Source of the DNA: an uncultured Actinomycetes bacterium
Lineage (GTDB): Bacteria > Actinomycetota > Thermoleophilia > RBG-16-64-13
Reading direction: 5' to 3'
Assembly: GCA_963841735.1 (NCBI GenBank)
Contig: CAWJDT010000001.1
Location: forward strand, 1,280,001 to 1,344,000
DNA: 64,000 nucleotides
Below the pieces are notes generated by a model. It did no database searches. It saw nothing but the letters and a program-made list of their open reading frames with translations, and was not told the DNA's origin. Every line of letters begins with the position of its first letter. The stretch's first letter is position 1. Below are positions 29,197 to 52,486 of the stretch, in pieces. The position numbers were made by a program, and so were the translations under genes.

Positions 29197-29217
29197 TCTA
29201 GTTCCTCCCCGCGGTCA

Positions 29218-35176: not shown

Positions 35177-35187
35177 GTGATTCTCCT

Positions 35188-36240: not shown

Positions 36241-38514
36241 TTAAAAAATCGGGTCCATGGTGAGCGCGGGGTGCTCGTGCTCTTCCAAGAAGGGCAGAAG
36301 CTCCTCCACCGTGGTCACCGAGCGCTCATCGGCGATCTTGTCCAACAGGCCGGGGTCGCCCTCGCGTTCGCAAACGGCCTTGAAGTCGTCGGCCATCATG
36401 GCCTTGAGGTTGCTCGACATCCAGACCACGCGTTTGAAGCCGCCCTCGGCCGAGATGAACTTGCGGCTGAGCAGGTAGTACTTGCCTACGCCCATCATGC
36501 CCGGAGTCTGCAGACCGCCGCCGGCGACACCCGCGAGCGTGGAGAAGGTCATGCCGGCCGGTGTCATACTCGGATCTTCGCGCGAGACCACCATGACCCC
36601 GTTGGCCTCGGGGACCACCATCACGATGCATTCAAAGCAGCCACAAGCAGTCATGGGGTCCTGCATGATGGAGTACAGCGCCAGGCGTTCCACCGACTGC
36701 TGCGTGTTCTGGTAGGCGAACTCGTTCGCTCCTTGGTACACGCCCAGCGTGGAATCGATGCAGATGCCCTTGGGGATGGGCTGGTTGGGACCTGTGGGGT
36801 TGATCTGGTTGGACGCCTTGCAGTCGAGCCAGTTGTAGGCACCGCACAGTCCCAAGCGCTCGGGCGAGATGACGCACACGTGGTTGGGCGCGAAGCTCTG
36901 GCACAGCGTGCAACTGTAGAACTCGTCCACCGAAGCGTCCACCATGTCGGCCAGCCGCAGGTTGCGGTTCTGGTAGGCCTGACGCGCCTTGGCCAGCCAC
37001 TCCTCGAACTTCTCTGGGTCGGTGAACAGCGTCACCTGGACCTTATCCACGATGGCGCCAAACTCGGCATGGAATCTGGCGTAGAGGATGTCACCCAGGT
37101 TCTTGAGCGCGAAGCCCTTCTCTATAGCTCCCTTGCTGAAGCGGATCCAGGTGATGTCGCGCTGGCCTATGTGCTGGATGCCCGACGCGCCGTTGACGAA
37201 GTAGTGCATCTGGCGCTCTAGCACCGGCTCGAAGTCTTCCTGCATCTTGCGTCCGGCCACCTCGACCAGGATGCCGAGGTTCGTGGCGGCGCCCTCAGGC
37301 ACGTCGTCGATGCCAGGCCCCACCACTTCTATGCGGCCGTCCTCGATCTCGTCCAGGCCGGCCATGCGCAGGTATTCGAAAGCCTTGGCTTTTGAGCCGC
37401 CGAACTCCAGGCGCATGTCGGCCTTGCGCACGCGTTCACCCTCGAACGCGCTGCCGTAGGCCACTGGGATGGGAACCTCGGTGATCTTGATCTTGACGCC
37501 CCGTACTTCGATGGCGCGCTGCACCAGCTTGCGGGCCTTCTCGGTGTCGTTGTCGGCCTCGATGTCGTCGAAGGGCATGCTGACCACATGCTCGTAGGCA
37601 GTCACCCCAGTAGGTAGGATCTGGGGGATGACGGTGTCGGCGATGACGGGGAAGCCGTAGTTGATGGCTCCGGCTGCCGCGGCGTACTTGAGGTCGTCCA
37701 CTTCACCCAGCGCGAGGACGAAGGCGAACACCCGGTACTTGTTGTAGAGCAGGATGTTGCGGATCTGGCCTCCGGACATGCCGCCGAAGGTCAGGGCTGA
37801 CCGAGTGGCAAAGCCCAGCGCGTATATAGCCGAGATGGTGTCGGTGCCGAAGGGCACGATGTAGGTGTCATAGCCCATCTCGACGCCCTCTTCCATCAAC
37901 TGATGGATGATGCTGCGTCCGTTCACGTTGCCCGAGAGGAACACCAGGATGTTGCGCTTCTGCAGCTCGCGCACGATAGACACGGCCGCTTCGTTGCTGC
38001 GGGCCGCGCCTACGATGGCGGCGAATCCGGGCATGCGCCCGTCGACCAACTGGATGCCCCAAGCGCGCAACTGGATGTCGTCGATAGGTCCGTTGGCGTA
38101 ACCACCCGGGCCGCCGTCGTTCCCTTGGGGGGCGCTGGTGCCGGTGAGGCTCAACCCAGGGATGGCCTCGGGTTGTTCGCCGCGGACGAAGCGCACGGCC
38201 TCGATGGCCTCCGCGGCAAGCAGAGTGGCGGCGCCGCTGTCCAGTGTCTCACCCAGATAGGGGAGCCACAGACTGTCGCCCGGGGCTTCGGCGAGCAGCC
38301 GGCGCGCCTGGGCGAGGGCCTGCTGCAGCTGCCCCAGGTTGTCTACTTCCATGCCGGTGAATCCCAGGATCACAGGTAGGTGGTAGGCGGTGTTGGTGAA
38401 CGCGACCGGTTTATCGGCGCCGAATTCGGCGATGGCCGCCTGCAGCATCTGCTCGGACTCGTTCACGATGCTGTTGGCGCCGCGCATGGCGGCTCTTGCT
38501 ATGTATCTCGACAT
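36241..38514 (-). CDS. acsB: Acetyl-CoA synthase (bacterial type)
   Basis: FYSCTLCQSFAPNHVC, GLCGA, PMTACGCFEC A-cluster motifs; N-terminal NTAYHLP domain. Confidence 0.97.
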   Translation of the reverse strand: MSRYIARAAMRGANSIVNESEQMLQAAIAEFGADKPVAFTNTAYHLPVILGFTGMEVDNLGQLQQALAQARRLLAEAPGDSLWLPYLGETLDSGAATLLAAEAIEAVRFVRGEQPEAIPGLSLTGTSAPQGNDGGPGGYANGPIDDIQLRAWGIQLVDGRMPGFAAIVGAARSNEAAVSIVRELQKRNILVFLSGNVNGRSIIHQLMEEGVEMGYDTYIVPFGTDTISAIYALGFATRSALTFGGMSGGQIRNILLYNKYRVFAFVLALGEVDDLKYAAAAGAINYGFPVIADTVIPQILPTGVTAYEHVVSMPFDDIEADNDTEKARKLVQRAIEVRGVKIKITEVPIPVAYGSAFEGERVRKADMRLEFGGSKAKAFEYLRMAGLDEIEDGRIEVVGPGIDDVPEGAATNLGILVEVAGRKMQEDFEPVLERQMHYFVNGASGIQHIGQRDITWIRFSKGAIEKGFALKNLGDILYARFHAEFGAIVDKVQVTLFTDPEKFEEWLAKARQAYQNRNLRLADMVDASVDEFYSCTLCQSFAPNHVCVISPERLGLCGAYNWLDCKASNQINPTGPNQPIPKGICIDSTLGVYQGANEFAYQNTQQSVERLALYSIMQDPMTACGCFECIVMVVPEANGVMVVSREDPSMTPAGMTFSTLAGVAGGGLQTPGMMGVGKYYLLSRKFISAEGGFKRVVWMSSNLKAMMADDFKAVCEREGDPGLLDKIADERSVTTVEELLPFLEEHEHPALTMDPIF

Positions 38515-38518
38515 TCGC

Positions 38519-40507
38519 CTATACCTCCGACGCTACCGGCCGCTTGCCTGCCGAATAGATACTCACCGACTCGTCCGCGGGCACCTCGGGCTCAAGCTCT
38601 ACCATCTGACTGTCGCCGCTCTGGCCGAAACGCGCCGGGTCGTACTCGGTCAGACCGAGTTCGGCGCGCTTGGCGTCGATGTGCGCGATAGCCTTCTTGA
38701 TGAGTGCCGGGATGTCGGGCTCGAACTCGATTCCGCCTCCGAAGCGCGCCGTCCAGCCGTTCAGCATGAGGTCTTTGACCTCCGGGCTTCCGCCAACGGG
38801 GGAGGGCAGGCCGAAGAGCACGTAGGCGCCGGAAGCCGCGCAGTACGAACCGATGGCAAGTGCCTTCTCCGACATGTACTCCGGGCATATGCCCACCGCG
38901 GGCAGATCGGAGATGTCTTCTCCCAGACCGCCCTCAGTGGCGCACTCGGTAAGTATGGTGAGGATACGGGAGTTGTCCACGCAGGAACCGACGTGCAGCA
39001 CAGGCGGGATGCCGATGGCCTCGCACACCTCGCGCAGTCCGGCACCGGCTTGCTCCATGAACTCCGGCTTAAGATATCCGTACTTCGCCGCCCCCGTGGC
39101 CGCACAACCAGTGACTGCAACCAGCACGTCGTTCTTGATCAAGTCGGCGATGATCTCGGTAGTGGGGGCGTCCTGGGTCACCCGCGGGTTGTTGCAGCCC
39201 ACAACCGCGGCCAGACCCCGGATGCGGCCGGCTGCGATGGCGTCGTTCAAAGGACGGAACGAGCCGCGGAAGTGCCCGCCCTGCATGTAGCGCACGTATT
39301 CATGCGAGAAGCCGGCTATGAGCGCCTCGTCGGTCTGGGGGATGACCGTCTTCTTGCGATTGGGATAGTTGTCTATCGCGGCGCGCACGATGCCCTTCGC
39401 ACTTTGGTAGGCGTCGTGCTCGTCGAATTCCATGTGCACCGCTCCCTCGATCTTGGCCTTGGGGGAGGTGGTGATGAGTTTGGTGTGGTAATGGGTGGCC
39501 ACTTCGGCCAGAGCCTGCATGACGCACTGCACGTCGACGATCATAGCCTCGATGGCCCCGGTCGCGATGGCCAGCTCCTGCGAGAGGAAGTTGCCGGCGG
39601 GGGGGATGCCGTGTCGCATGAGCACCTCGTTGGCGGTGCAGCAGATGCCGGCCAGGTTGATGCCCTTTGCGCCCTTGCTCTTAGCGTACTCGATCAGTTC
39701 CGGGTCGGTGGAGGCCGCGACGATCATCTCCGCTACGATGGGCTCGTGGCCGTGGATAACGACGTTGACCTCGTCGTCCTTGAGCACTCCCAGGTTCACC
39801 CTGCTCTGTAGCGGAGTGGGGGTGCCGAACAGGATGTCGCTGATGTCGGTGGCCAGCATGGACCCGCCCCAGCCGTCCGCAAGGGACGTGCAGAGCACCT
39901 GGTCCAGAAGATGCTCTGCGTCCTGATCGACGCCCATGTGGGTACGATGCATCATCTCCACCACCTCGCGGTCGATGCCGCGGGGAGCGACCTTCTCTTT
40001 GTGCCAGCGCTCTTGCTGCGCCGCGCTCGCCCGCGAGAGATACATCAGCTCGCCGGTCTGCCTGCCGAACTCACCAAGGGCTGCCTCGGCGACATCAAGG
40101 GCGATGTCCAGCACCGGCCGGTCGCCGGTCTTGATGCCCATGTGGTCGGCTACGGCGCGGAGTTTCACCTCGTCGCGGATGCCGAAGCCATGCGTCTCGC
40201 CCTTGGCTACTGCCAGCAGGGCGAGCGCCATCCCGCGACCGTGGTCTGAGTGCGCGGAGGCGCCGGCGGCTACCGCCCGGGCGAAGTTGCGGGCCGAGAC
40301 AGTGGCTTGGGTGGCGCCGCATACTCCGCGCGTGGTCGTGCCTATGAGGCGGCAAGGACCCATTGCGCAGTTCTTGCAGCAGATGCCCTCAGCCCCTATG
40401 GGGCACGGTAGTATGTCGGCGGCCCGGTCGAAAGCGGTCTCAATCACACCTTCACATGAGCCGAGTACCTCACACGCCGCTGCGTCTGCACTTTTGCGTT
40501 CAGGCAT
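38519..40507 (-). CDS. cooS: Anaerobic Ni-CO dehydrogenase catalytic subunit
   Basis: CCKNCAMGPC, AHSDHGR, HGHEP, GICCTANE, DVQC, GCNN, TGC, GSCVDN, MSEKA. Confidence 0.97.
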   Translation of the reverse strand: MPERKSADAAACEVLGSCEGVIETAFDRAADILPCPIGAEGICCKNCAMGPCRLIGTTTRGVCGATQATVSARNFARAVAAGASAHSDHGRGMALALLAVAKGETHGFGIRDEVKLRAVADHMGIKTGDRPVLDIALDVAEAALGEFGRQTGELMYLSRASAAQQERWHKEKVAPRGIDREVVEMMHRTHMGVDQDAEHLLDQVLCTSLADGWGGSMLATDISDILFGTPTPLQSRVNLGVLKDDEVNVVIHGHEPIVAEMIVAASTDPELIEYAKSKGAKGINLAGICCTANEVLMRHGIPPAGNFLSQELAIATGAIEAMIVDVQCVMQALAEVATHYHTKLITTSPKAKIEGAVHMEFDEHDAYQSAKGIVRAAIDNYPNRKKTVIPQTDEALIAGFSHEYVRYMQGGHFRGSFRPLNDAIAAGRIRGLAAVVGCNNPRVTQDAPTTEIIADLIKNDVLVAVTGCAATGAAKYGYLKPEFMEQAGAGLREVCEAIGIPPVLHVGSCVDNSRILTILTECATEGGLGEDISDLPAVGICPEYMSEKALAIGSYCAASGAYVLFGLPSPVGGSPEVKDLMLNGWTARFGGGIEFEPDIPALIKKAIAHIDAKRAELGLTEYDPARFGQSGDSQMVELEPEVPADESVSIYSAGKRPVASEV

Positions 40508-43375: not shown

Positions 43376-43566
43376 TGGCGGCCTCCCTTCGTGAGCATAT
43401 GCGTGCATGGACTCTATCACGCGCGGAGCGGCGGCGTGTTATACTGCGGCCAAGCATTCGTCAGGAATATGCTTTAGGCGCAGCGCCGAGCCTCTCAACC
43501 TCCCCGCTCAGTCTCCAGTCTTTCCCTCTCGTCTGTCGCAATGTAACTCCGTTCATGGAGGCTGTA

Positions 43567-43938
43567 GTGAATTCAGCAAAACTGTACGTGGGCAATCTCA
43601 GTTATGAGACGTCCGAAGCAAGTATCAGGACCGCTTTCGAGGCTCACGGCGAAGTGACTTCGGTCGCCCTGATCACCGACCGCGACACCGGCCGCCCCAA
43701 AGGCTTCGGTTTCGTGGAGATGGGATCACCCGACGAAGCGCAGAAGGCCAAGGCCGCTCTTGACGGCACCCAGATGGACGGTCGCGCTCTCAAGGTCGAC
43801 GTTGCCAAGGAGCAGGTGGCTCGCGCCCCTCGTTCCGGCGGCGGCTTCGGTGGTGGCGGCGGCGGCTACGGTGGTGGCGGCGGCGGCGGAAGCCGCGGCG
43901 GCTTCGGTGGCGGCGGCGGCGGCGGTAACCGCTGGTAG
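43567..43938 (+). CDS. RRM RNA-binding protein with Gly-rich tail
   Basis: RNP2 LYVGNL, RNP1 KGFGFVEM, GGGF/Y repeats; TGnTATACT about 120 nt upstream. Confidence 0.95.
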   Translation: MNSAKLYVGNLSYETSEASIRTAFEAHGEVTSVALITDRDTGRPKGFGFVEMGSPDEAQKAKAALDGTQMDGRALKVDVAKEQVARAPRSGGGFGGGGGGYGGGGGGGSRGGFGGGGGGGNRW

Positions 43939-43973: not shown

Positions 43974-44060
43974 GAAACGCCGGCCTTCGGGCCGGCGTTT
44001 CTGTTTGTAAGCACAAGAAGAAGAGGCCCGGAAATCCGGGCCTCTTCTTTGCTTTTGCTT
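43974..44060. terminator. Tandem intrinsic terminators between convergent genes
   Basis: GAAACGCCGGCC-TTCG-GGCCGGCGTTTC and AAGAAGAGGCCCGG-AAAT-CCGGGCCTCTTCTTT. Confidence 0.85.
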
Positions 44061-44143
44061 TCACTGCCACCCGGGGTCACATGACCCCGGGAACGGCGGT
44101 TCGAGCCGCGCAGCCGGCCCTAGGGCCGGCTGCGCGCGCTGTC

Positions 44144-45736
44144 CTAGCTCTTCAGGATGGCTTCCGCCTCGGCGCGATTTGCGTCCATCAAGTAGGGGAT
44201 GCCGGTGACCCGGGTGCATTCTTCGGTGAGACTCATGAGGTCGGCACGGCGGATGGCGCCGATATTGAAAGCCCGCGCACCGGCCATCAGTTGTTGGAGA
44301 CCTACCCGAAGCTTCTGGGCGTAGGAGTAGAAGCCCACAGCGCCCAGCGGGAAGTTCTTCATCTCGTCCTTGCCGATGATGTCGGAGACTTCCTCCCAGC
44401 AGACGAAGATCTCTTCGGGAGTGCTGCCGTACTGGCCGACGGTGTTGGGTAGCCCGCCGTTGTTCATCCACATGCCGGCGTTCTTGCCCACCATGCCTGG
44501 GATCATGAGTGCTCGTCCCATGCAGACCGCCTTCGTGAAGGGCGCGCCCAGGGAGAGGGCCTTGAATATATGGTCCTCGGCGCTGAAGCCGCCGCCGAAG
44601 GCCAGGTCGGGCACGCGCTTGCCCAGGGCCGTCAGCTGGGCGGCAAAGTCGGCCGCGGCAGAGTGCAGGTAGAGGCTGGGCATGCCCCACTCTTCCATCA
44701 TGCGCCACGGGCTCATACCGGTGCCGCCGGGAGCACCGTCGATGGTGAGCAGGTCGATCTTAGCTTCGCTGCCCCACCTGAGTGCCATTGCCAGTTCGCG
44801 CAGCCCGTAAGCGCCTGTCTTGAGGGTGATGCGCTTGTAGCCAAGGCTGCGCAGCCGTTGGCACTCGGCCAGGAAGCCCTCTTCATCTATGAAGCCGAGG
44901 CGGCTGTGCCGCTCGAACTGCTTGAGAGCGCCGTCCTTGAAGGCCGCCTGGGTGATGGGGTCGGACGGATCGGGAGTGACGATGTAGCCACGCTTCTGCA
45001 GCTCGAGGGCCCGCTCGAGCGAGCCGACCTTGATCTCTCCGCCGATGCACTTGGCGCCCTGGCCCCACTTCAGCTCGATGGTGTCGAGGCCGTGCTTTTC
45101 GATGACATACTCGGCCACGCCCAGGCGCGTGTCTTCGACGTTCATCTGCACGAGAAGCTCACCGTAGCCGCGGTGATAGCGCTTGTAGGTCTCGATACGG
45201 CGGTCCATGTCGGGCGAGAGCTTGATCTTGCCCTTGGCGTCCAGTTCCAGTCCCGGATCGATGCCGCAGACGTTCTCGCCGCACACGCAGGTCACGCCGC
45301 TGATGGCAGCGCCCGTGGCGAAGTGCTCCCAGTTCTTGCGCGCGACTTCGGTGGAGCCCAGAGCGCCGGTGAACATCGGCGCCAGCATCTTCACCTTGAG
45401 GTCCCAGCCGTATTCGGTGCCGACGTTGACGTCGGGGAACGTGCAGGTGTCGGGGCTGGCCACAACGCCCTCGGGTAGGCCTTCGCCGCCAAGGGCGTAG
45501 CCCTGGATGTTCAGGTGTGAGTAGTCCACCGGGTAGTCTTTGTCGCCGCCGGCGGTGATGGAGCCGAATGGGCCGGGGTAGATGACCTCCCGTCCGCGGA
45601 AGGTGGCCTGAAAGACTTCGCAGTTGCCACGGCAACCGTCGATGCATCGGGTGCAAAGGCCAGAGCCGGGGACGACGCTACGTGAGCGGTTGGAAGTCTG
45701 GGATACGTCATTCGCATTGGGTCGCTGCAGATTCAC
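44144..45736 (-). CDS. Stand-alone FMN-binding glutamate synthase domain protein
   Basis: N-terminal CTRCIDGCRGNC; ELKWGQGAKCIGGE, LKTG, TIDGAPGGTG, GGGF, VCMGRA. Confidence 0.9.
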   Translation of the reverse strand: MNLQRPNANDVSQTSNRSRSVVPGSGLCTRCIDGCRGNCEVFQATFRGREVIYPGPFGSITAGGDKDYPVDYSHLNIQGYALGGEGLPEGVVASPDTCTFPDVNVGTEYGWDLKVKMLAPMFTGALGSTEVARKNWEHFATGAAISGVTCVCGENVCGIDPGLELDAKGKIKLSPDMDRRIETYKRYHRGYGELLVQMNVEDTRLGVAEYVIEKHGLDTIELKWGQGAKCIGGEIKVGSLERALELQKRGYIVTPDPSDPITQAAFKDGALKQFERHSRLGFIDEEGFLAECQRLRSLGYKRITLKTGAYGLRELAMALRWGSEAKIDLLTIDGAPGGTGMSPWRMMEEWGMPSLYLHSAAADFAAQLTALGKRVPDLAFGGGFSAEDHIFKALSLGAPFTKAVCMGRALMIPGMVGKNAGMWMNNGGLPNTVGQYGSTPEEIFVCWEEVSDIIGKDEMKNFPLGAVGFYSYAQKLRVGLQQLMAGARAFNIGAIRRADLMSLTEECTRVTGIPYLMDANRAEAEAILKS

Positions 45737-45786
45737 TATCGGTCTCCTTCAGCGTTACTGGATTGCCTGATTGTCTCGTTATGCCG

Positions 45787-46491
45787 CTAGTTCTCGGCCA
45801 GGACCCCACGTAGCTGCCACCGGACGCACTGGAAACCTCGGCCCAGTTCGCACATGACGCAGGTGTCGGGGATGTTCTCGACCATAGTCGTTTGGGATTC
45901 GCAGAGCCCGCAGATGCCCGGCTCGGTCTGAGGGCCGGGGCAGGGGGTGATGGTCATGGGGCAGACCTCGACGCAGCTGTTGCAGCGCTTGCAGAGGTCG
46001 GGCCTTTTGTCGAAGGGCAGGGCCACGTGCCGGTCGGCGCCCCGTCCCACAAAGCCCAGGGAGTGCGACTGCCATACCTCGCCACAGATGCGCACGCACT
46101 TGCCGCAAAGGACGCAGTTGTTATTGCGCATGGGGTAGCGCGAACGGGTGACGCCCACCCGCGCGGCCAGGTCTTGGATGGCGCGGGAGTTCGGGGCCTC
46201 GGCCAGCAGGAGCTCCACGATGTTCCGCCGCGCGCGCATCACCGCTTCGGTGTGCGCCTCCACCACCAGGCCCTCTCGGGCCTCCAGGGTGCACGACGCG
46301 GTCATCTTGCGCCGGCCGTTCTCGACGACTTCTACGATGCAGACCCGGCACGCACCGATGGGGCTGACTCCGGGCATGTGACACAGATTGGGGATGCAGA
46401 TCCCCGCCTCGAGGGCCGCTTCCAGCACGCTGGATCCCTCTGGCGCCTGGATCTGGGCCCCGTCTACCGTGATTGTGACTGTCTTTGCCAT
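45787..46491 (-). CDS. HydA/NuoG N-terminal-like Fe-S subunit with extra Cys-rich tail
   Basis: IPNLCH, GACRVC, ASC, CVLCGKCVRIC, CKRCNSCVEVCP; tail CGLC...CVMC...C. Confidence 0.88.
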   Translation of the reverse strand: MAKTVTITVDGAQIQAPEGSSVLEAALEAGICIPNLCHMPGVSPIGACRVCIVEVVENGRRKMTASCTLEAREGLVVEAHTEAVMRARRNIVELLLAEAPNSRAIQDLAARVGVTRSRYPMRNNNCVLCGKCVRICGEVWQSHSLGFVGRGADRHVALPFDKRPDLCKRCNSCVEVCPMTITPCPGPQTEPGICGLCESQTTMVENIPDTCVMCELGRGFQCVRWQLRGVLAEN

Positions 46492-46502
46492 GGAATGACC
46501 TC

Positions 46503-48350
46503 TCAGACTCTGCCAATGGCATCGGAGGGGCACGACTCCGTACATTCGCCGCATCCCTGGCACAACTCCGGGTCTATCCGGAAGGCGTCGTCCTCGCTGA
46601 TAGCGCTGTGCGGACAAGCGTCGAGACAGGCTCCGCACTGTGCGCAGAGATCCTGGTCGATCTCATACTTCACGAGCGCCTTGCAGACGCCGGCGGGACA
46701 GCAATGGTCTTTGATGTGAGCCTCGTACTCGTTCTCGAAGTAGCGCAAAGTCGAGAGCACCGGGTTGGGAGCTGTCTTGCCCAGCGCGCATAGCGACCCG
46801 ACCGACATAGTCCAGGCCAGGTCTCTCAGCGTGTCCAGTTGCCTGGCGTTGCCGCGGCCTTCGGTAATATCGGTGAGGATCTCGAGCATCCGGTCGGTGC
46901 CCAACCTGCAGGGCACGCATTTGCCGCAGGATTCCTCTTTGAGGAACTTGAGGAAGTACTTGGCCACGTCGACCATACAGGCCGATTCGTCCATGACCAC
47001 CATGCCGCCCGAACCCATCATCGAGCCGGCCTCCGCCAGGGCCTCGTAGTCCACCGGGAGGTCGAACTGCGAGACCGGCAGGCAGCCACCCGACGGCCCG
47101 CCCGTCTGCACCGCTTTGATGGTTTTGCCGTTCTGCGCGCCGCCGCCGATATCGAAGATGATCTGCCGGAGCGTCGTGCCCATCTCGACCTCGACCAGTC
47201 CGGTGTTCTTCACGTGACCGGTAAGGGCGAAGACCTTGGTGCCCTTGCTCTTCTGGGTGCCCTTGCCCGCGAACCAAGCCGCCCCGTTCAGGATGATGCG
47301 GGGGACGTTGGCCCAAGTCTCAACGTTGTTGAGAGCGGTCGGCAGGTCCAGATAGCCGCGTTCGACCGTGTGGACGTCCTTGGGCCGGGGTTCGCCGACT
47401 TCGCCCTCCAGAGAAGCCATGAGCGCGGTGGACTCTCCGCAGATGAAGGCCCCACCGCCCCGGGCCACTTTTACGTCGAAGCTATAGCCGGTGCCCAGGA
47501 TGTTGTCTCCCAAGAGGCCGAGGTCCCGCGCTCGTTCGATGGCCTCGCGAGTGTTCATAACCGCAAGGGGATACTCGTTTCGCACATAAACGTAGCCCTG
47601 ACGGGAACCGACCGCATACGCGCCGATCATCATCCCCTCAAGGATCGAATGCGGATTGCCCTCGAGCAGGCCGCGGTCCATGTAGGCCCCGGGGTCTCCC
47701 TCGTCGGCATTGCAGACTACATACCGCTCGCTGCCAGGAGCGCTGCGGCACTGTTCCCACTTGCGGGCCGTCGAGTATCCGCCGCCTCCGCGGCCTCGTA
47801 GGCCCGACAGCTTGATCTCGGCGATCACGGCTTCGGGGTCCATGGAAGTGAGCACGCGGCCCAACGCCGAGTAGCCTCCGGAAGCGATGTAGTCTCCGAT
47901 ATCGCAGGGGTCGACAAGCCGGTTACGGCCGATAAGCTCCCGGTCCTGCTTTGCGAAGAAGGGGAGGTCTGCCGGCGTGCGGGCTATCTGGCCGGTGGTG
48001 TCATCGGTGTAGCAGAGCCGATCGATCACTCGGCCGTTCATCACCGATTCGGAGACGATCTCGGCCACATCTGCTGGAGTGACCTTGCAGTACAGAACGT
48101 CGAGAGGCTCGACTATGAGCAGCGGCTCCTGCTGGCAGAAGCCCTGGCAGCCGGTGACGCGGACATTGACCTCGTCGGTCAGGCCGTTCTCGTCGAGACG
48201 GGCGCGCACTGCCTGAAGGACGGCCAGCGAGCCTGATGCCTCCCCGCACGTGCCGCTCGACAGCGTGATGCGCATGGGCCACGCCTGCCGCTCCCTGGCC
48301 AGTCCCTCCCTGAACGACGCTAGGGCCTCCGGGTCTTGCAGTCTAGGCAT
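46503..48350 (-). CDS. Second HydB/NuoF-like subunit
   Basis: GRGGGGY, NADEGDPGAYMDR, ESCGKCVPCRLG, HIKDHCCPAGVC, two 4Fe-4S motifs. Confidence 0.95.
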   Translation of the reverse strand: MPRLQDPEALASFREGLARERQAWPMRITLSSGTCGEASGSLAVLQAVRARLDENGLTDEVNVRVTGCQGFCQQEPLLIVEPLDVLYCKVTPADVAEIVSESVMNGRVIDRLCYTDDTTGQIARTPADLPFFAKQDRELIGRNRLVDPCDIGDYIASGGYSALGRVLTSMDPEAVIAEIKLSGLRGRGGGGYSTARKWEQCRSAPGSERYVVCNADEGDPGAYMDRGLLEGNPHSILEGMMIGAYAVGSRQGYVYVRNEYPLAVMNTREAIERARDLGLLGDNILGTGYSFDVKVARGGGAFICGESTALMASLEGEVGEPRPKDVHTVERGYLDLPTALNNVETWANVPRIILNGAAWFAGKGTQKSKGTKVFALTGHVKNTGLVEVEMGTTLRQIIFDIGGGAQNGKTIKAVQTGGPSGGCLPVSQFDLPVDYEALAEAGSMMGSGGMVVMDESACMVDVAKYFLKFLKEESCGKCVPCRLGTDRMLEILTDITEGRGNARQLDTLRDLAWTMSVGSLCALGKTAPNPVLSTLRYFENEYEAHIKDHCCPAGVCKALVKYEIDQDLCAQCGACLDACPHSAISEDDAFRIDPELCQGCGECTESCPSDAIGRV

Positions 48351-48858
48351 TGGCGATCACCTCATTGTTGCCGGCGTGGCTTTCACCAGCTGCTGCACCG
48401 TCCGTCGCGCGGACGTCGCCAAGCAGCGTTTTCAACTTGGCCGGGGTCATGTGGTCGTGATACACGCCGTCGATCACCACCACCGGGCTCAGAGCACAGG
48501 CTCCGAGGCAGTTGACGGTTTCGAGGGTGAACGCCCTGTCTTCGGTGGTATCGCCGGGCTGGACTTTGAGTTGCGCGGTCACCTCGTCGAGCAGCTTGGG
48601 TGCTCCCCGGACGTGGCAGGCCGTGCCCGCACAGACCGTCAAGAGATGACGTCCGCGGGGCTTTAGGCTGAAAGCCTTGTAGAAGTTGGCCAGGCGGAAT
48701 ACTTCGATGAGTGGCATGTCAAATGAGGCGGAGACCTGACGGAGCACCTCCTCAGGGAGGTATCCGCACTGCCCCTGGATGTCGTGCAAGACCTCCATGA
48801 TGGCGAACGGCTCCGTGCCGCGGTTTTCGATGATCGTTTCGAGGTTACTCGTTTCCAT
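48343..48858 (-). CDS. Second HydC/NuoE-like subunit
   Basis: LANFY, VCAGTACHVRG, NCLGACALSP. Confidence 0.95.
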   Translation of the reverse strand: METSNLETIIENRGTEPFAIMEVLHDIQGQCGYLPEEVLRQVSASFDMPLIEVFRLANFYKAFSLKPRGRHLLTVCAGTACHVRGAPKLLDEVTAQLKVQPGDTTEDRAFTLETVNCLGACALSPVVVIDGVYHDHMTPAKLKTLLGDVRATDGAAAGESHAGNNEVIANA

Positions 48859-49052
48859 GCTTTCTCCGGGCCCTCCTGACCTTCACGCGCTTCGCACCTT
48901 GCCGGGAGATTTGCGCGTCTCCTCGCTGTTTGACGCGTACCGGCCGTATCTTGCCAAGCCTTTCGCCCGCAAACGCAGAAGAGGGATCGAGCCATAAAGC
49001 CCTATCTCGCGGCCCTGCTCCGAAGACCGGCGCGCCATGCATCGGTGCTTGT

Positions 49053-49318
49053 GGCATCTAATTGCCGCGCCACTGTAGCAGCAGGTTGCGCAAACAGCAA
49101 CATAAGCAGCCAGTATTGGGCGCGGGGAGTTGGACTGCGGCGGCAATATTGCCGGTAGCGGTGCGGCAAGTGTCCTTCTTTCTGCCGGCCGTGGGAGCGG
49201 GAGACCTTCCCCCGTGTTGGGTGTGGCAGCGGGTGTTGGCGCGATTTGTTCCCGTCCACGCGACGGGCGACAAGCGGCATAATTGCCGCTGGCACTAAGG
49301 ACATCGGCAGATTTGCTG
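49053..49318. promoter_or_regulatory. Repeated GGCA-N4/N6-TGCC palindromes, candidate NrpR operators
   Basis: 49053 GGCATCTAATTGCC; 49141 CGGCAATATTGCCG; 49273 AGCGGCATAATTGCCGCT; 49305 CGGCAGATTTGCTG. Confidence 0.6.
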
Positions 49319-49333
49319 GTAAGATTTGCTTGT

Positions 49334-50344
49334 ATGAGAGAGAGCACCGAAGAGAAACGTCTCGCTATCCTGCGGATACTCCGCGAGGCTGCAGGACCGC
49401 TGGGGAGCTCCAAGATCACGGAGCGGCTCTCGGCGATGGGTCACGATGTGAGCGAGAGAACCGTGCGCTTTCACCTGCTCGACATGGACAAGGGCGGGCT
49501 TACGCAGAACCTGGGCCGCAACGGGCGGGCCATCACGCCTCGGGGCCTGAGCGAGGTAGACACCTCCAGGGGCTTCGAGAGGGTCGGCATCCTGTCGGCC
49601 AAGATCGATCAGATGACCTACAAGATGGACTTTGATCTGGTCAAGAAGGCGGGCACGGTGGTGGTGAACGTGAGCGTCATCCCCAGAGACCAACTCGAGC
49701 GCTCCATTCCTCTTATGAGCCGGGTGTTTGCCGCCGGCTACGCCATGGGCAAGCTTATCGCGCTGCTGCAGCCCGGTGAGAGCGTCGGGCAGATGGCCGT
49801 ACCCGAGGGTAACGTGGGCATAGCCACCGTATGCTCGATCACGGTGAACGGAGTGCTGGTGGCCAACGGAATCCCCACCAACTCGCGTTTTGGGGGACTA
49901 CTGGAGATGCGTGAGCACAGAGCGACCCACTTCGCCGAGTGGATCAACTACGACGGCACGACCCTGGACCCGCTGGAGATATTTATCCGCAGCGTCATGA
50001 CCGACTATGTAGGGGCCACGCGGACGGGCAACGGCCTCATCGGCGCCAGCTTCCGGGAGGTGCCTGCCGACAGCCGCGATCACGTGCTGGAGCTTGGCCG
50101 CCAGATGGACCAGGTCGGTTTGGGCGCCATCCACTTGGTTGGTTGGCCTGGGCGCCCGCTTCTGGAGATCCCGGTGAGTGAGGGGCGCCTCGGCATTGTG
50201 GTGGTGGGTGGACTGAATCCGGTGGCCATCCTAGAAGAGAAGGGTATCCCGGTGTTTCGCACAGGGGCATTGGCCGGGCTTATGGACTACGGACGGCTGT
50301 TCCACTACGAAGAACTGGGCGAGCGCGCTCGTCTGCTCGACTGA
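49334..50344 (+). CDS. nrpR: NrpR nitrogen regulator (wHTH + NRD/DUF128)
   Basis: SERTVRFHL, TVCSITVNGVL, FGGLLE, YDGTTLDPLEIFI, VGGLNPVA. Confidence 0.92.
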   Translation: MRESTEEKRLAILRILREAAGPLGSSKITERLSAMGHDVSERTVRFHLLDMDKGGLTQNLGRNGRAITPRGLSEVDTSRGFERVGILSAKIDQMTYKMDFDLVKKAGTVVVNVSVIPRDQLERSIPLMSRVFAAGYAMGKLIALLQPGESVGQMAVPEGNVGIATVCSITVNGVLVANGIPTNSRFGGLLEMREHRATHFAEWINYDGTTLDPLEIFIRSVMTDYVGATRTGNGLIGASFREVPADSRDHVLELGRQMDQVGLGAIHLVGWPGRPLLEIPVSEGRLGIVVVGGLNPVAILEEKGIPVFRTGALAGLMDYGRLFHYEELGERARLLD

Positions 50345-50445
50345 GCGCAAACGAGCATCCGACTCAGCTTGCGTGCCGGTGCTAACACAATCGGCCCTTC
50401 TCCCACTATCATATGACTGTCGCTACCCGGCACGAGAGGAAACAG

Positions 50446-51882
50446 ATGATCAAGTTCAGCGAGCGGCAGCTCAAGACGCCCAGGCAAATGCGGCCGGTGT
50501 ATCTGGTTACTGCCGGCCAGTCCAAGTACGCCAGGGCGATCCCAGAGAAGAGAACCGAGGAATTGTGCATCGACGCCTTCACCATGGCGGCGGATTTGCT
50601 CGGTCTCACTCCGGCCGACCTCAAGAAGTATATCCATACCTGCTACTACGGTCATTTCGCCGACCACTTCGGCGACCAGCTCCTGGGCGAAGCGGTTATC
50701 CACGACCGGCTGGGCCTTGATCCTCTAGGCAACGTGGGCATCAAGTCGGGCGGCGCCACCGGCGGCTCCACTCTGTGGGAGGCCGCCAAGGCCGTGGCCT
50801 CCGGGTACTCGGATTGCGTTCTTGCCATGGGCTGGGAGCGCATGGACGAGGTGCCCACCGATGAGGGCAACTTCCTTATAGCCTGCGCGGCCGACCGCGA
50901 CTGGGAGTCTCCCATGGGCCAGATCTACACTGGCTACTACGCGGTCATGGCTCAGAAGTACTGGCAGGTGTTCGGCAAGGCCGAAGCCTCGTTCAGGCGC
51001 ACTCTCGCTGAGATCTCGGTGAAGCACCACGGGTATGCCCGCTTCAATCCGTTCGCGCATGGCGCCATGAAGATCACCGTGGACGACGTGATGATGTCGC
51101 CCATGGTGGCCGATCCGCTGCGGGCCCTCGATGCCTGCCTCATGAGCGTGGGGGCGGCCTGCGCGATTCTCTGCGACGAGGATACGGCCATGGAGCTCAC
51201 CAAGAACAGCAAGAACAAGCCGCTCCGTATCTGTGTGACGGCCGGCTCGCACACTCTGCGCCCGGCCGATCGGCGGCCCATGGAGATCCCTCTGCTGCCC
51301 AACGAGTCGGCCGACCAGTACAAGAATCTGGGCAAGGAATTCCCCGGAGGCGACAGGTACCCGGGCTTCACCGGCTTTCTCGCGGCGAGGGTGGCGGCCT
51401 ACTATGCCTACCACATGACGGGTGTAGTCGATCCCACCGAGGACTTCGACGTCATCGAACTGCACGACGCCTTCACCATCAGCGACGTGCAAACCTACGA
51501 GGACATCGGCATCCGGCCCTACGGCCACGGCCGCGAATATGTGGAGTCGGGCGACTGTTACCACACCAACCCGCACACCGGCAAACCGGGCAAGCTGCCC
51601 TCCAACCTCTCCGGCGGGCTGATCGGTTGCATGCACGCGGTGGGTGCGAGCGGCATCATGCAGGTCTTCGAGATCGCCACCCAACTTTGGGGACGGTGGG
51701 CGGAAGTCCACGGCGATGAGAAACGCTGGAAGGAGTTCGGCCGGGAGAAACCGGCAGACTGGACCGACCTGCAGGTGAAGGGCGCCAAGAGGGCCCTATC
51801 CGTCAGTCACGCGGGCGTGGGCTCGCATGTGACGGCGACCATCCTCCAGGATCCCGATCATATGCTCAAGAAAGACGCGTGA
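50446..51882 (+). CDS. SCP2/archaeal-type thiolase-fold protein lacking the nucleophilic Cys
   Basis: SGGATGG where CASG is usual; ELHDAF; NLSGGLIGCMHAVGASG. Confidence 0.85.
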   Translation: MIKFSERQLKTPRQMRPVYLVTAGQSKYARAIPEKRTEELCIDAFTMAADLLGLTPADLKKYIHTCYYGHFADHFGDQLLGEAVIHDRLGLDPLGNVGIKSGGATGGSTLWEAAKAVASGYSDCVLAMGWERMDEVPTDEGNFLIACAADRDWESPMGQIYTGYYAVMAQKYWQVFGKAEASFRRTLAEISVKHHGYARFNPFAHGAMKITVDDVMMSPMVADPLRALDACLMSVGAACAILCDEDTAMELTKNSKNKPLRICVTAGSHTLRPADRRPMEIPLLPNESADQYKNLGKEFPGGDRYPGFTGFLAARVAAYYAYHMTGVVDPTEDFDVIELHDAFTISDVQTYEDIGIRPYGHGREYVESGDCYHTNPHTGKPGKLPSNLSGGLIGCMHAVGASGIMQVFEIATQLWGRWAEVHGDEKRWKEFGREKPADWTDLQVKGAKRALSVSHAGVGSHVTATILQDPDHMLKKDA

Positions 51883-51895
51883 GAGAGGCCTTACG

Positions 51896-52486
51896 ATGAG
51901 TCAATACGGACAGGTCCAAGTCAAAGACGGCCGGTACAAGTTCAGGGGCGACTTCCATCGTCTTGAGCAGCACATGCCCATCAGGGACGCCGACCAGAAC
52001 TGGAAGCTGGTAGGGGTCACGAAGCCTCGGGACATGACCTACGTGCACACCTACGGGGGCGAAGCGGTGTTCTTCGAGTCGCTCTCCCAGGGCAAACTCC
52101 TGGCCACCAAGTGTGAGAACCCGGCTTGCGAGGCAAACGGCTCCATCTTCCAGCCGTTTAGGATCTACTGCCCCGACTGCCTTTCGAAGATGGCGGTCAT
52201 CGACATGACCGACCTGGCTAAGAAGTCGGCCGTCGTGCATACCTTCATGGTCTGCGAGCGTTCGGGCGCGTTCAACGTGCTCGACAAGCCCATCCGCTTC
52301 ATCAACATCGAATTCGACAACGTGTGCACGATCTTGTTCAGCTATCTGTTGCTGGGCGAGCCCCAGATTGGGCAGCGGGTGGTGCCTGTGTTCAAATATC
52401 ACAATCCTACGTATTCGATTCTTGATCTCTCCTGGGTGCCCGCGGGCACGAAGGCGGAGTCGCTGCCGGAGGGCTTCGGGTTCTGA
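51896..52486 (+). CDS. DUF35 Zn-ribbon/OB-fold thiolase partner
   Basis: FFESLSQGKLLATKC-x4-C...CPDC; PQIGQRVVPVF. Confidence 0.85.
   Translation: MSQYGQVQVKDGRYKFRGDFHRLEQHMPIRDADQNWKLVGVTKPRDMTYVHTYGGEAVFFESLSQGKLLATKCENPACEANGSIFQPFRIYCPDCLSKMAVIDMTDLAKKSAVVHTFMVCERSGAFNVLDKPIRFINIEFDNVCTILFSYLLLGEPQIGQRVVPVFKYHNPTYSILDLSWVPAGTKAESLPEGFGF

What the first reader, a model, noticed from the sequence alone, without database searches (positions are those of the whole stretch)
44144..50344. NrpR-linked HydCBA-like module plus a lone FMN glutamate-synthase domain: candidate ATP-sparing ammonia assimilation complex
Seen: nuoE-nuoF-FeS-FMN-domain genes run co-directionally and closely spaced, divergent from nrpR. 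There is no glutamine amidotransferase, GXGXG or GltD subunit. The FMN protein has an N-terminal CxxCxxxCxxxC and the Fe-S subunit has an extra CGLC/CVMC/C tail absent from its paralogue. Known: the GOGAT FMN domain reduces 2-iminoglutarate, NrpR senses 2-oxoglutarate, and HydBC modules can bifurcate. Inference: the complex aminates 2-oxoglutarate with free ammonia and may split NADH electrons between iminoglutarate and ferredoxin. Ammonia-using stand-alone homologues may already be described; the bifurcating coupling is the part I do not recognise.
Basis: partly seen in the sequence, partly recalled or inferred. Interest (0 to 1): 0.8.

Follow-up and report, generated by a model that had tools for sequence, protein, structure and literature searches.

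The report
Nitrogen-regulated bifurcating-type glutamate-synthase-like operon
Four adjacent genes join an NADH/ferredoxin electron-handling module to an uncharacterised, very conserved relative of the glutamate synthase flavin domain, next to a nitrogen-sensing repressor gene; the enzyme may make glutamate from free ammonium without ATP in anaerobes.

Summary
On the minus strand lie nuoE-like (48343-48858), nuoF-like (46503-48350), a small Fe-S gene (45787-46491) and a 530-aa FMN protein (44144-45736), divergent from nrpR (to 50344).

- **Electron module:** the first three genes have the BfuC/BfuB/small-BfuA architecture. The best solved matches are bifurcating NiFe-HydABCSL and WorABCSL.
- **FMN protein:** it belongs to a very conserved family (74-94% identity across phyla). 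It is only distantly related to the glutamate synthase FMN domain, lacks that domain's internal Cys cluster, and carries a conserved N-terminal CxxCxxxCxxxC.
- **Fe-S tail:** six Cys are invariant in 28 of 28 orthologues. The tail is probably a WorA-like zinc-finger dock, not a redox extra.
- **Linkage:** starting from the tailed Fe-S gene, 56 of 64 informative metagenome loci carry the FMN gene. NrpR, PII, glnA, amtB or gdhA flank the FMN gene in 33 of 80 genome loci.
- **Rest of the genome:** a canonical split GOGAT and glnA are encoded elsewhere. No GDH was found.

Best reading: a nitrogen-regulated reductive aminase of 2-oxoglutarate fed by NADH plus reduced ferredoxin. My searches found no paper describing the operon. 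This scan noted the same module earlier in other genomes.

The parts
44144..45736 (-). 530-aa FMN protein, the catalytic subunit. It is a distant relative of the glutamate synthase FMN (synthase) domain and carries an N-terminal Cys4 motif (C28, C31, C35, C39).
   Evidence: PF01645 scores 48.9 bits against a cut-off of 20.4, but only over profile positions 197-309 of 369. hhalign against canonical Fer4-FMN GltS subunits gives probability 98%, E 2.5e-13, 269 columns. The Cys4 motif is conserved in 30 sequences. The AF2 model has pLDDT 83.6 and an FMN TIM-barrel fold.
45787..46491 (-). Small BfuA-like Fe-S subunit. It has one [2Fe-2S] motif, two CxxCxxCxxxC motifs and a C-terminal six-Cys tail that is a probable zinc-finger dock.
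   Evidence: Fer2_4 E 3.2e-20 plus Fer4 families. The best solved match is 9mqx_A (WorA, 247 aa), E 2.7e-34, aligned over 4-184. The tail Cys are invariant in 28 of 28 orthologues and absent from the paralogue. The WorA zinc finger and helix dock the catalytic module (PMC12318220).
46503..48350 (-). BfuB/HydB-type NuoF homologue. It has an N-terminal [2Fe-2S] domain, an FMN/NADH site, SLBB, the NuoF [4Fe-4S] and a C-terminal 2x[4Fe-4S] ferredoxin domain.
   Evidence: Pfam and NCBIfam hits. Full-length matches to 7t2r_B (E 2.3e-215), 9mqx_B, 8a6t_B, 7q4v_B and 9n5u_B. The NADEGDPGAYMDR motif aligns with A202 and M204 of the A. mobile chain.
48343..48858 (-). BfuC/HydC-type NuoE homologue (thioredoxin-like [2Fe-2S]).
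   Evidence: PF01257 E 5.5e-46, covering profile positions 2-144 of 145.
48859..49333 (.). Divergent control region with four conserved palindromes of the form GGCA-N4/N6-TGCC, at 48942-48955, 49053-49066, 49142-49153 and 49276-49287. These are candidate NrpR operators.
   Evidence: The four sites stay aligned in 8 orthologous spacers whose mean column identity is 47%. This is the only cluster of four such sites in the 2.82-Mb genome; all other clusters are pairs.
49283..50344 (+). NrpR-family regulator (winged helix plus NRD1/NRD2). The start may be the ATG at 49334.
   Evidence: PF01995 E 4e-77 and PF08461 E 4.5e-16. It is the only NrpR found in the genome.
44017..44050 (.). Hairpin of 14-15 base pairs between the end of the FMN gene and the convergent RRM gene. 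It is a likely two-way terminator that closes the operon.
   Evidence: The scan found no more such sites than shuffled sequence gives (4 found, 4.0 expected), so this rests on position and stem length only.

Best explanation
The four genes encode one cytoplasmic complex.

BfuC and BfuB bind NADH at FMN and ferredoxin at the C-terminal 2x[4Fe-4S] domain. The small BfuA-like subunit wires them through one [2Fe-2S] and two [4Fe-4S] clusters. Its Cys-rich tail, a probable zinc finger as in WorA, docks the catalytic subunit.

The catalytic subunit is a GltS-synthase-like FMN barrel. It takes single electrons at its own N-terminal Cys4 cluster, which replaces the internal [3Fe-4S] of GltS. It passes them to FMN and reduces 2-iminoglutarate formed from 2-oxoglutarate and free ammonia to glutamate.

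I propose that NADH and reduced ferredoxin are oxidised together (confurcation). This supplies electrons near -0.4 V, so amination stays favourable at micromolar ammonium without spending ATP.

NrpR, which binds the four palindromes in the spacer, would repress the operon. It would release it when 2-oxoglutarate rises.

Shown: gene order, domain content, conservation of the linkage, nitrogen-gene neighbourhoods and homology to GltS and Bfu.

Inferred: the substrate, ammonia as the nitrogen donor, the direction of electron flow, the metal in the tail and the NrpR-operator assignment.
For: 1. Conserved unit.
- Starting from the tailed Fe-S gene, 80 metagenome loci were examined. Of these, 56 hold the FMN gene: 45 just downstream and 11 upstream of nuoE.
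- 16 loci are cut by contig ends. 6 show only the downstream side, without the FMN gene. 2 show both sides without it.
- nuoF is adjacent in 73 of 80.
- All 6 relatives with an orthologue of 84% identity or more have nrpR <> nuoE-nuoF-FeS-FMN.

2. Bfu architecture.
- All BfuB, BfuC and minimal BfuA domains named in PMC9304861 are present.
- There are full-length matches to five solved bifurcating BfuB subunits.
- Non-bifurcating homologues lack clusters B2-B5 (PMC9304861).

3. GltS relationship.
- PF01645 is the only Pfam hit.
- hhalign gives 98% probability.
- K223-x-G-Q-G-A-K229, R249 and D333-G-x-x-G-G-T-G align with invariant residues of canonical subunits.

4. Nitrogen context of the family in 80 genome loci: NrpR 31, PII 8, gdhA 4, glnA 3, amtB 3, and any of these 33.
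- glnA lies directly upstream of the FMN gene in G012.
- amtB-PII-glnA-NrpR lie in L021, and gdhA-NrpR-PII in L047.

5. Phyletic hint within the window's own taxonomic family.
- GDH was found in 19 of 19 genomes without the orthologue.
- Among the 7 genomes with it, GDH was not found in 3 (G000, G058, G088), carries one frame break in 2 and is intact in 2.

6. Source of reduced ferredoxin. The window itself encodes CODH/ACS.

7. Thermodynamics (my estimate; E0' of about -0.14 V for 2-OG + NH4+/Glu is recalled). At 10 uM ammonium with Glu/2-OG of 100, the couple falls to about -0.35 V. That lies between NADH and ferredoxin, which is where Bfu third substrates sit.
Against: - No activity, expression or binding data exist.
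- Sequence identity to canonical GltS FMN domains is low: 26% over 135 residues. By fold, the model is as close to flavocytochrome b2, glycolate oxidase and type-2 IPP isomerase (Z about 27) as to GltS (1ofd, TMq 0.47). Another 2-oxo or 2-hydroxy acid or another imine is therefore possible.
- Most family members have no Bfu genes nearby. Only 6 of 80 genome loci have the tailed Fe-S gene adjacent, so the Bfu link is one of several contexts.
- The genome and its relatives also keep canonical GOGAT. 9 of 80 family loci sit beside amidotransferase genes, so a glutamine-linked role is not excluded.
- The palindromes differ from the methanogen GGAA-N6-TTCC operator (recalled; 0 matches in the window). 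They were not found upstream of amtB or GOGAT in this genome.
- The GDH pattern rests on related genomes, on MAGs, and on a window genome that is 89.7% complete.
Confidence: 0.45

Rival explanations
1. The complex bifurcates: two NADH are oxidised, one electron pair reduces 2-iminoglutarate (exergonic) and the other reduces ferredoxin (endergonic). The energy of amination is conserved as reduced ferredoxin.
For: The BfuB/BfuC architecture is complete, including the ferredoxin-side clusters. With standard potentials (recalled), -0.14 V and -0.50 V average to the NADH potential, so the reaction is about isoenergetic. EtfAB-type enzymes do this with crotonyl-CoA and menaquinone (PMC9304861).
Against: In every characterised Bfu enzyme, NAD is the high-potential partner and the third substrate has mid potential (PMC9304861). 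For high-potential third substrates the authors propose joint oxidation of NADH and reduced ferredoxin. Giving away the driving force would make amination fail at low ammonium, which is when an NrpR-repressed operon should be on.
Confidence: 0.12
2. A plain NADH-dependent enzyme. The NuoEF/Fe-S module only replaces GltD as an NADH-to-FMN wire, and ferredoxin plays no part.
For: NuoEF-type modules serve as simple NADH input in complex I, Hox hydrogenases and NAD-dependent formate dehydrogenases (listed among the matches). In other loci the family sits next to Fer4 plus pyridine-nucleotide-disulfide-oxidoreductase genes, which suggests interchangeable NAD(P)H inputs.
Against: Non-bifurcating homologues lack the B2-B5 clusters (PMC9304861). 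This BfuB keeps the N-terminal [2Fe-2S] and the C-terminal 2x[4Fe-4S] domains, and it aligns end to end with bifurcating BfuBs.
Confidence: 0.12
3. The FMN subunit still depends on glutamine or another amide or amine donor. It would work with an amidotransferase encoded elsewhere, or it would transfer another amine, as the GltB-like N-methylglutamate synthase does (enzyme recalled).
For: The genome has a class-II amidotransferase fused to a canonical FMN domain, plus GXGXG. 9 of 80 family loci and 1 of 80 Fe-S-side loci hold amidotransferase genes nearby.
Against: Each of those loci also has its own canonical FMN subunit, so the amidotransferase already has a partner. No amidotransferase lies in the operon in any of the 56 metagenome loci with the FMN gene except L144. 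No fused longer form was found, which is weak evidence.
Confidence: 0.1
4. The FMN subunit acts on a different substrate, such as another 2-oxo or 2-hydroxy acid or a cyclic imine. The nitrogen-gene neighbourhood would then reflect a side branch of nitrogen or carbon balance rather than glutamate synthesis.
For: The best fold matches are alpha-hydroxy-acid oxidases and dehydrogenases and type-2 IPP isomerase (Z 26-28). The Pfam match covers under a third of the GltS profile. One GltS motif residue is changed: Glu234 stands where canonical subunits have His/Gln (the role of that residue is recalled).
Against: No FMN_dh or other Pfam family reaches E 0.001; only Glu_synthase does. The QGAK and Arg positions are kept. 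The neighbours are glnA, gdhA, amtB, PII and NrpR. GDH is missing only in genomes that carry the operon.
Confidence: 0.2

Closest known systems
WorABCSL of Acetomicrobium mobile (PDB 9MQX), a Type 2 BfuABC enzyme
   Same: BfuB matches at E 6.4e-211 and the small BfuA at E 2.7e-34. The BfuA is short, with one [2Fe-2S] and two [4Fe-4S] motifs and a Cys-rich C-terminal extension. The catalytic function sits on a separate subunit (PMC12318220; PMC9304861).
   Different: The catalytic partner here is an FMN/Fe-S GltS-like protein, not a tungstopterin WorL with a WorS nanowire. The tail shows no sequence match to WorA and has six Cys. The third substrate would be reduced, not oxidised.
NiFe-HydABCSL (7T2R/7T30) and FeFe-HydABC (8A6T, 7Q4V, 7P5H) bifurcating hydrogenases; NfnABC (9N5U)
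   Same: The BfuB/BfuC core aligns over its full length (E 2.3e-215 to 1.3e-183) and shares the NAD-site motif.
   Different: There is no hydrogenase or NADPH domain. The BfuA is truncated to about 234 aa.
Glutamate synthase: the alpha-subunit synthase domain (1OFD, 1EA0) and archaeal/Thermotoga-type split GltB2 (Fer4 + FMN)
   Same: The FMN barrel is homologous. The QGAK, Arg and DGxxGGTG motifs are kept. The neighbourhood is nitrogen assimilation.
   Different: There is no internal Cys cluster; the aligned segment has no Cys. The operon has no amidotransferase, central domain, GXGXG or GltD. A new N-terminal Cys4 motif is present. Only about a third of PF01645 is matched. PMC8097209 gives the canonical make-up.
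NrpR of methanogens (M. maripaludis, Methanothermobacter)
   Same: The same two-domain architecture. It lies next to nitrogen-assimilation genes. It is predicted to bind inverted repeats (PMC3087415).
   Different: The host is bacterial. The candidate operators are GGCA-N4/N6-TGCC rather than GGAA-N6-TTCC. In this genome they occur only at this operon.

Membership tests
BfuABC (HydABC-type) family, as defined in PMC9304861 | BfuB has the NuoF FMN-binding domain, SLBB, the NuoF [4Fe-4S] domain and a 4Fe-4S ferredoxin-type domain. | tested here: met
   PF01512 E 1.1e-39; PF10531 30.3 bits (cut-off 27); PF10589 E 7.1e-33; two PF00037 stretches at 563-612. The definition is read.
BfuABC (HydABC-type) family, as defined in PMC9304861 | BfuB keeps the extra clusters B2-B5, that is the N-terminal [2Fe-2S] and C-terminal 2x[4Fe-4S], which non-bifurcating homologues lack. 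| tested here: met
   NF041612 2Fe-2S ferredoxin matches residues 39-112. Residues 28-615 align with 7t2r_B 8-597 with a single two-residue gap, including the CPAxxC and both CxxCxxCxxxC motifs. The rule is read.
BfuABC (HydABC-type) family, as defined in PMC9304861 | Bfu-specific residues at the FMN/NADH site (F182, A202, M204 of A. mobile BfuB). | tested here: inconclusive
   A222 and M224 align with A202 and M204. Residue 182 of the solved chain is Lys in that alignment, so F182 could not be mapped. The paper's Supplementary Figure 10 was not seen.
BfuABC (HydABC-type) family, as defined in PMC9304861 | BfuC has the NuoE-type [2Fe-2S] domain, and BfuA has at least a 2Fe-2S and a 4Fe-4S ferredoxin-type domain. 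| tested here: met
   PF01257 E 5.5e-46; Fer2_4 E 3.2e-20 plus Fer4 families.
BfuABC (HydABC-type) family, as defined in PMC9304861 | Coupled oxidation or reduction of NAD(H), ferredoxin and a third substrate. | not testable with these tools
   This needs an anaerobic enzyme assay.
Glutamate synthase (GltS/GOGAT) | FMN synthase domain (PF01645). | tested here: met
   48.9 bits against a cut-off of 20.4, but only profile positions 197-309 of 369. hhalign probability 98% over 269 columns.
Glutamate synthase (GltS/GOGAT) | Cys ligands of the Fe-S cluster inside the synthase domain. | tested here: not met
   The canonical Cys-rich segment (C415, C418 and C423 of L058's canonical subunit) aligns with a Cys-free segment of the family. 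The canonical make-up is read in PMC8097209.
Glutamate synthase (GltS/GOGAT) | Glutamine amidotransferase domain or subunit coupled to the synthase. | tested here: not met
   None in the operon or among the 47 window ORFs scanned. One is present elsewhere in the genome with its own FMN domain.
Glutamate synthase (GltS/GOGAT) | GXGXG (beta-helix) domain and a GltD-type or other dedicated electron-input subunit. | tested here: not met
   No PF01493 in the window; the two genomic copies are on contig C5. Electron input here is BfuCBA.
Glutamate synthase (GltS/GOGAT) | 2-oxoglutarate-binding Lys and Arg of the synthase site. | tested here: inconclusive
   K229 and R249 align with invariant K246 and R266 of canonical subunits. 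Their roles are recalled from the GltS literature, not read here.
NrpR | Winged-helix domain plus NRD1/NRD2 regulatory domains. | tested here: met
   PF08461 E 4.5e-16 and PF01995 E 4e-77, covering profile positions 1-236 of 238.
NrpR | GGAA-N6-TTCC operators (motif recalled). | tested here: not met
   0 matches in the window. Four GGCA-N4/N6-TGCC palindromes stand there instead.
NrpR | Release from DNA by 2-oxoglutarate. | not testable with these tools
   This needs EMSA or in vivo work.
FMN-dependent alpha-hydroxy-acid oxidases/dehydrogenases (FMN_dh) | Sequence membership (PF01070) and fold. | tested here: inconclusive
   The fold matches at Z about 27. No PF01070 hit at E 0.001 or better.

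The most novel reading that the evidence does not exclude
A third route of primary ammonium assimilation in anaerobes, beside GDH and GS-GOGAT. A ferredoxin-boosted (NADH plus reduced ferredoxin, Bfu-type confurcating) glutamate synthase would use free ammonium and replace the ATP of glutamine synthetase by low-potential electrons. Stand-alone family members in many phyla would be the ferredoxin-only version, and a bacterial NrpR would be its dedicated 2-oxoglutarate switch.
Probability: 0.3. Interest if true: 0.9.

Novelty: new variant of a known kind. Interest (0 to 1): 0.72.

Why it matters
If the reading holds, energy-limited anaerobes (acetogen-like Actinomycetota, Dehalococcoidia, Nitrospirota, Planctomycetota and others) assimilate ammonium at low concentration by spending reduced ferredoxin instead of ATP. 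That would change nitrogen and energy budgets in metabolic models of anoxic sediments, soils and guts.

It would also:
- add a biosynthetic amination to the reactions handled by the Bfu family;
- give a function to a very conserved family now labelled only 'FMN-binding glutamate synthase family protein';
- provide a bacterial model for NrpR with a simple, local regulon.

Tried and rejected
- **Complex prediction, Fe-S subunit with FMN protein:** no verdict (score 0.00, controls not run). This is evidence for nothing.
- **AF2 model of the Fe-S subunit:** mean pLDDT 56 and tail below 50, too poor for a fold search, so the zinc-finger reading of the tail was not tested by structure.
- **phmmer of the tail alone against PDB:** only a non-significant hit (E 0.14) to a RanBP2-type zinc finger, and no hit to WorA.
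- **phmmer of the FMN protein against PDB:** 0 hits at E 1 or better.
- **Fold searches:** they do not tell GltS apart from alpha-hydroxy-acid oxidases or type-2 IPP isomerase.
- **Fused forms of 929-2650 aa:** none scored; the tool calls this weak evidence.
- **The look-up of sequencing runs for 44000-50400:** none was listed and no RNA holder was listed.
- **GGAA-N6-TTCC:** 0 matches in the window.
- **The new palindromes upstream of amtB (4 loci) and the GOGAT cluster:** nothing convincing.
- **Idea that the family is the only glutamate-forming enzyme in GDH-less relatives:** rejected. G058 and G088 keep a canonical PF01645 plus GXGXG.
- **Literature searches.** These found no description of a Bfu module with a GltS-like partner or of this 530-aa family.
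  - Search listings.
  - Passages read: PMC9304861 (0 occurrences of 'glutamate'), PMC12018979, PMC12318220, PMC8097209, PMC9765008, PMC3087415 and PMC2725144.
  - Supplements: only one supplementary file of PMC9304861 is held as text, and it has no 'glutamate' or 'GltB'. Its Supplementary Table 1 of gene clusters was not seen and could list such operons among the 17 unassigned BfuB clades.
  - Open lead: GSU1239 of Geobacter ('glutamate synthase-related protein' with an Fe-S protein and a pyridine-nucleotide-disulfide oxidoreductase behind a predicted RpoN promoter) may be a family member. I could not check its sequence.

Full report
**What is there**

The ORF list and the Pfam and NCBIfam scans confirm four co-directional genes on the minus strand and one divergent gene.
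- nuoE-like, 48343-48858: PF01257, E 5.5e-46.
- nuoF-like, 46503-48350: PF01512, SLBB, PF10589 and two Fer4 stretches, plus an N-terminal 2Fe-2S ferredoxin-like region matched by NF041612.
- Small Fe-S gene, 45787-46491: Fer2_4 plus Fer4. The calls used 45787-46488, which lacks the start Met. Residue numbers below follow that 233-residue translation.
- 530-aa protein, 44144-45736: its only Pfam hit is Glu_synthase (48.9 bits, profile positions 197-309 of 369).
- nrpR, 49283 or 49334 to 50344, divergent: NRD1_2 E 4e-77 plus HTH_12.

Gaps within the operon are -8, 11 and 50 nt. A 14-15-bp hairpin at 44017-44050 lies between the operon's end and a convergent RRM gene.

The window as a whole looks like an anaerobe that uses the Wood-Ljungdahl carbonyl branch. 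CODH, ACS, CdhD, RACo and a pterin-binding methyltransferase lie at 30132-40507.

**The electron-input genes are Bfu-type**
- The NuoF homologue aligns almost end to end with BfuB subunits of solved bifurcating enzymes: 7t2r_B E 2.3e-215, 9mqx_B 6.4e-211, 8a6t_B, 7q4v_B, 9n5u_B and 7p5h_B.
- It meets every domain criterion by which Schut et al. define BfuB and BfuC (PMC9304861, section read). This includes the extra N- and C-terminal cluster domains that non-bifurcating homologues lack (passage).
- At the NAD site it has NADEGDPGAYMDR. A222 and M224 align with A202 and M204 of the A. mobile chain. The third residue named in the paper could not be mapped.
- The Fe-S subunit's best solved relative is WorA of WorABCSL (9mqx_A, 247 aa, E 2.7e-34, aligned over 4-184). 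WorA is a short 'Type 2' BfuA with one [2Fe-2S] and two [4Fe-4S] sites.
- The window holds a second BfuCBA set at 26667-29712, next to the CODH/ACS genes. Its BfuB is 54% identical to this one.

**The Cys-rich tail**

C183, C193, C196, C210, C213 and C221 are invariant in 28 of 28 orthologues (L120, L127 and L162 were dropped before this alignment, two of them because of stop codons). The tail is absent from the paralogue.

In WorABCSL, a C-terminal zinc finger plus helix of WorA is the element that plugs the bifurcating module onto the catalytic module. Zinc fingers are also reported for the WorA homologues of Por-Bfu and Mbh-Bfu (PMC12318220, passages).

I therefore read the tail as a docking zinc finger. 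This is an analogy, because:
- the tail has no sequence match to WorA;
- my model of the subunit was too poor to test it;
- the complex prediction gave no verdict.

**The FMN protein**

The family is large and very conserved.
- In genome records, 589 stretches encode a relative, and the best 80 are 74-90% identical. They come from Actinomycetota, Dehalococcoidia, Nitrospirota, Planctomycetota, Thermodesulfobacteriota, Clostridia, Treponema and others.
- At the 50% cluster level, only 182 representatives score E 1e-30 or better.

Relationship to GltS:
- A profile comparison with canonical Fer4-FMN GltS subunits gives probability 98%, E 2.5e-13, over 269 columns.
- K223-W-G-Q-G-A-K229, R249 and D333-G-x-x-G-G-T-G coincide with invariant residues of the canonical proteins.
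- The canonical Cys-rich segment aligns with a Cys-free stretch.
- Instead, C28, C31 and C39 are invariant and C35 is kept in at least 90% of 30 sequences down to 31% identity. The family has apparently moved its Fe-S cluster to the N-terminus.

The AF2 model (pLDDT 83.6; the N-terminal 70 residues are low) is an FMN TIM barrel. Foldseek and VIA-align rank flavocytochrome b2, glycolate and lactate oxidases and type-2 IPP isomerase (Z about 27) at least as high as GltS (1ofd, TMq 0.47). The fold alone therefore does not fix the substrate.

**Is the linkage conserved?**

From the Fe-S side, a scan of metagenome contigs with the tailed Fe-S alignment returned 80 loci.
- 56 contain the FMN gene at 60% identity or more: 45 directly downstream and 11 upstream of nuoE.
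- 16 are cut too short to tell.
- 6 show only the downstream side, without the FMN gene.
- 2 show both sides without it.
- nuoF is adjacent in 73 of 80. The other 7 are cut within 320 bp.

From the FMN side, only 6 of the 80 best genome loci have the tailed Fe-S gene next door. Two more have a different Bfu set about 4 kb away. Most members stand alone or sit beside a Fer4 protein and a pyridine-nucleotide-disulfide oxidoreductase.

So the Bfu set with the tailed Fe-S gene was rarely found without the FMN protein, while the FMN protein uses several electron inputs.

In the window's own class, the family was found in 18 of 151 genomes, 15 of 25 in its own taxonomic family. All 6 relatives with an orthologue of 84% identity or more show nrpR <> nuoE-nuoF-FeS-FMN.

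**Nitrogen link**
- Counts in the 80 genome loci: NrpR 31 (24 of the 53 loci of 10 kb or more), PII 8, gdhA 4, glnA 3, amtB 3, and at least one of these in 33.
- Examples: amtB-PII-glnA-NrpR-FMN (L021) and FMN-gdhA-NrpR-PII (L047). glnA lies 18 bp upstream of the FMN gene in G012.
- 9 of 80 loci also carry a canonical split GOGAT, each with its own FMN subunit.
- The nrpR/nuoE spacer holds four palindromes (GGCCGTATCTTGCC, GGCATCTAATTGCC, GGCAATATTGCC, GGCATAATTGCC). They stay aligned in 8 orthologous spacers that are otherwise 47% identical.
- It is the only four-site cluster in the genome.
- Similar sites were not found upstream of amtB or the GOGAT cluster.
- The methanogen-type GGAA-N6-TTCC (recalled) is absent.
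- NrpR is single-copy here. It looks like a local regulator of this operon.

**The rest of the genome** (2.82 Mb, 8 contigs, 89.7% complete)
- Contig C5 encodes an amidotransferase-Fer4-FMN protein, a GXGXG protein and glnA. It also holds a second Glu_synthase/GXGXG set next to Fer4/CCG proteins.
- Several of these genes show frame breaks; glnA has at least three. Relatives have intact copies. Assemblies of this group show breaks elsewhere too, for example in nuoF in L183. Assembly error is therefore the likelier cause.
- No GDH (PF00208) was found.
- Four PII genes and four amtB loci are present.

GDH across the window's own taxonomic family:

| Group | GDH found | One frame break | Not found |
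|---|---|---|---|
| 19 genomes without the orthologue | 19 | 0 | 0 |
| 7 genomes with the orthologue | 2 (G118, G142) | 2 (G052, G130; same site) | 3 (G000, G058, G088) |

These genomes are kin and mostly MAGs, so this is a hint of functional overlap with GDH, not a test.

**Mechanism**

I commit to the following.
1. BfuCB oxidise NADH and reduced ferredoxin.
2. Electrons run A1-A2-A4 through the small BfuA to the N-terminal cluster and then the FMN of the catalytic subunit.
3. FMN reduces 2-iminoglutarate made from 2-OG and free ammonia.

Reasons for this direction:
- In all characterised Bfu enzymes the third substrate lies between NAD and ferredoxin. For high-potential partners (menaquinone, peroxide) the Bfu authors propose joint oxidation of NADH and reduced ferredoxin.
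- The standard potential of the amination couple is about -0.14 V (recalled; consistent with the GDH equilibrium). It drops by about 30 mV per tenfold fall in [NH4+][2-OG]/[Glu]. At 10 uM ammonium and Glu/2-OG of 100 it is near -0.35 V by my calculation. There NADH alone is too weak, while NADH plus ferredoxin (about -0.4 V) is adequate.
- That is exactly the condition under which a 2-OG-released repressor would turn the operon on. Methanogen NrpR is predicted to bind inverted repeats at nif, glnA and amt genes (PMC3087415). Its 2-OG response is recalled.

It would remove the driving force just when ammonium is scarce.

**Comparison and novelty**

The module is a member of the Bfu family by architecture. 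It works like a Type 2 enzyme such as WorABCSL.

The catalytic subunit is a relative of the GltS synthase domain but not a canonical member: three defining GOGAT features are tested and not met.

A GltS-like third partner is not among the functions listed for Bfu enzymes. That paper's main text never mentions glutamate. The paper leaves 17 BfuB clades unassigned, and I could not see its cluster table. The searches found no description.

Earlier notes of this scan describe the same module in other genomes (e1-1491100, e1-2512418, e1-4896292, e1-892343). My results agree with them, but they are not independent evidence.

I rate it a new variant of a known kind.

Noticed in passing
window 26667-29712 (-), beside 30132-40507: A second BfuC/BfuB/small BfuA set: 164, 642 and 204 aa. 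Its BfuB is 54% identical to the one in the finding, and its BfuA has no Cys tail. It lies directly downstream of the CODH/ACS, CdhD, RACo and methyltransferase genes. It is a candidate Bfu module serving the Wood-Ljungdahl genes (compare the predicted Codh-Bfu).
   Followed up: partly
window 48942-49287: Four conserved GGCA-N4/N6-TGCC palindromes with AT-rich spacers lie in the nrpR/nuoE spacer. They are the only such four-site cluster in the genome and differ from the methanogen NrpR operator.
   Followed up: yes
G000 contig C5, 165.8-170.8 kb (L009 3894-8713): The canonical split GOGAT (amidotransferase-Fer4-FMN, GXGXG) and glnA show several frame breaks, at least three in glnA. Relatives have intact copies. 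The cause is either assembly error or decay, and it is undecided.
   Followed up: partly
L009 12503-17783 (G000 C5, about 174.4-179.8 kb): A second Glu_synthase-domain gene with a weak GXGXG protein sits next to Fer4_8/Fer4_17 and CCG-domain (heterodisulfide-reductase-like) proteins. It resembles the 'split GOGAT with HdrBC partner' noted earlier by the scan (e1-5026304).
   Followed up: no
window 43399-43938 (+): An RRM-domain RNA-binding protein with a long Gly-rich C-terminal tail is convergent with the operon. Part of an RRM gene also occurs in metagenome locus L141.
   Followed up: no
window 50413-52486 (+): A thiolase-domain protein (PRK06365-like, 687 bits against a cut-off of 695) and a 196-aa protein with no Pfam hit lie directly downstream of nrpR on the same strand.
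   Followed up: no
L095 447-2021; L119 8434-10068; L050 9684-11258; L135, L138, L139, L147, L154: Many loci carry a second, 49-56% identical paralogue of the FMN protein next to the first. The window genome has none. A two-paralogue enzyme is possible in those lineages.
   Followed up: partly
L020, L027, L033, L058, L065, L069, L074: In these Dehalococcoidia/Chloroflexota loci the FMN family gene lies with a Fer4 protein and/or a Pyr_redox_2 oxidoreductase (both in 6 of the 7; only Pyr_redox_2 in L074). This is a likely alternative NAD(P)H input module. Four of the seven loci also hold a complete canonical split GOGAT.
   Followed up: partly
window 22218-26095 (+): A Fer4_11 protein and a 988-aa molybdopterin oxidoreductase with an AhtL-like (pyrogallol hydroxytransferase large subunit) first domain are followed by an Rrf2 regulator.
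   Followed up: no
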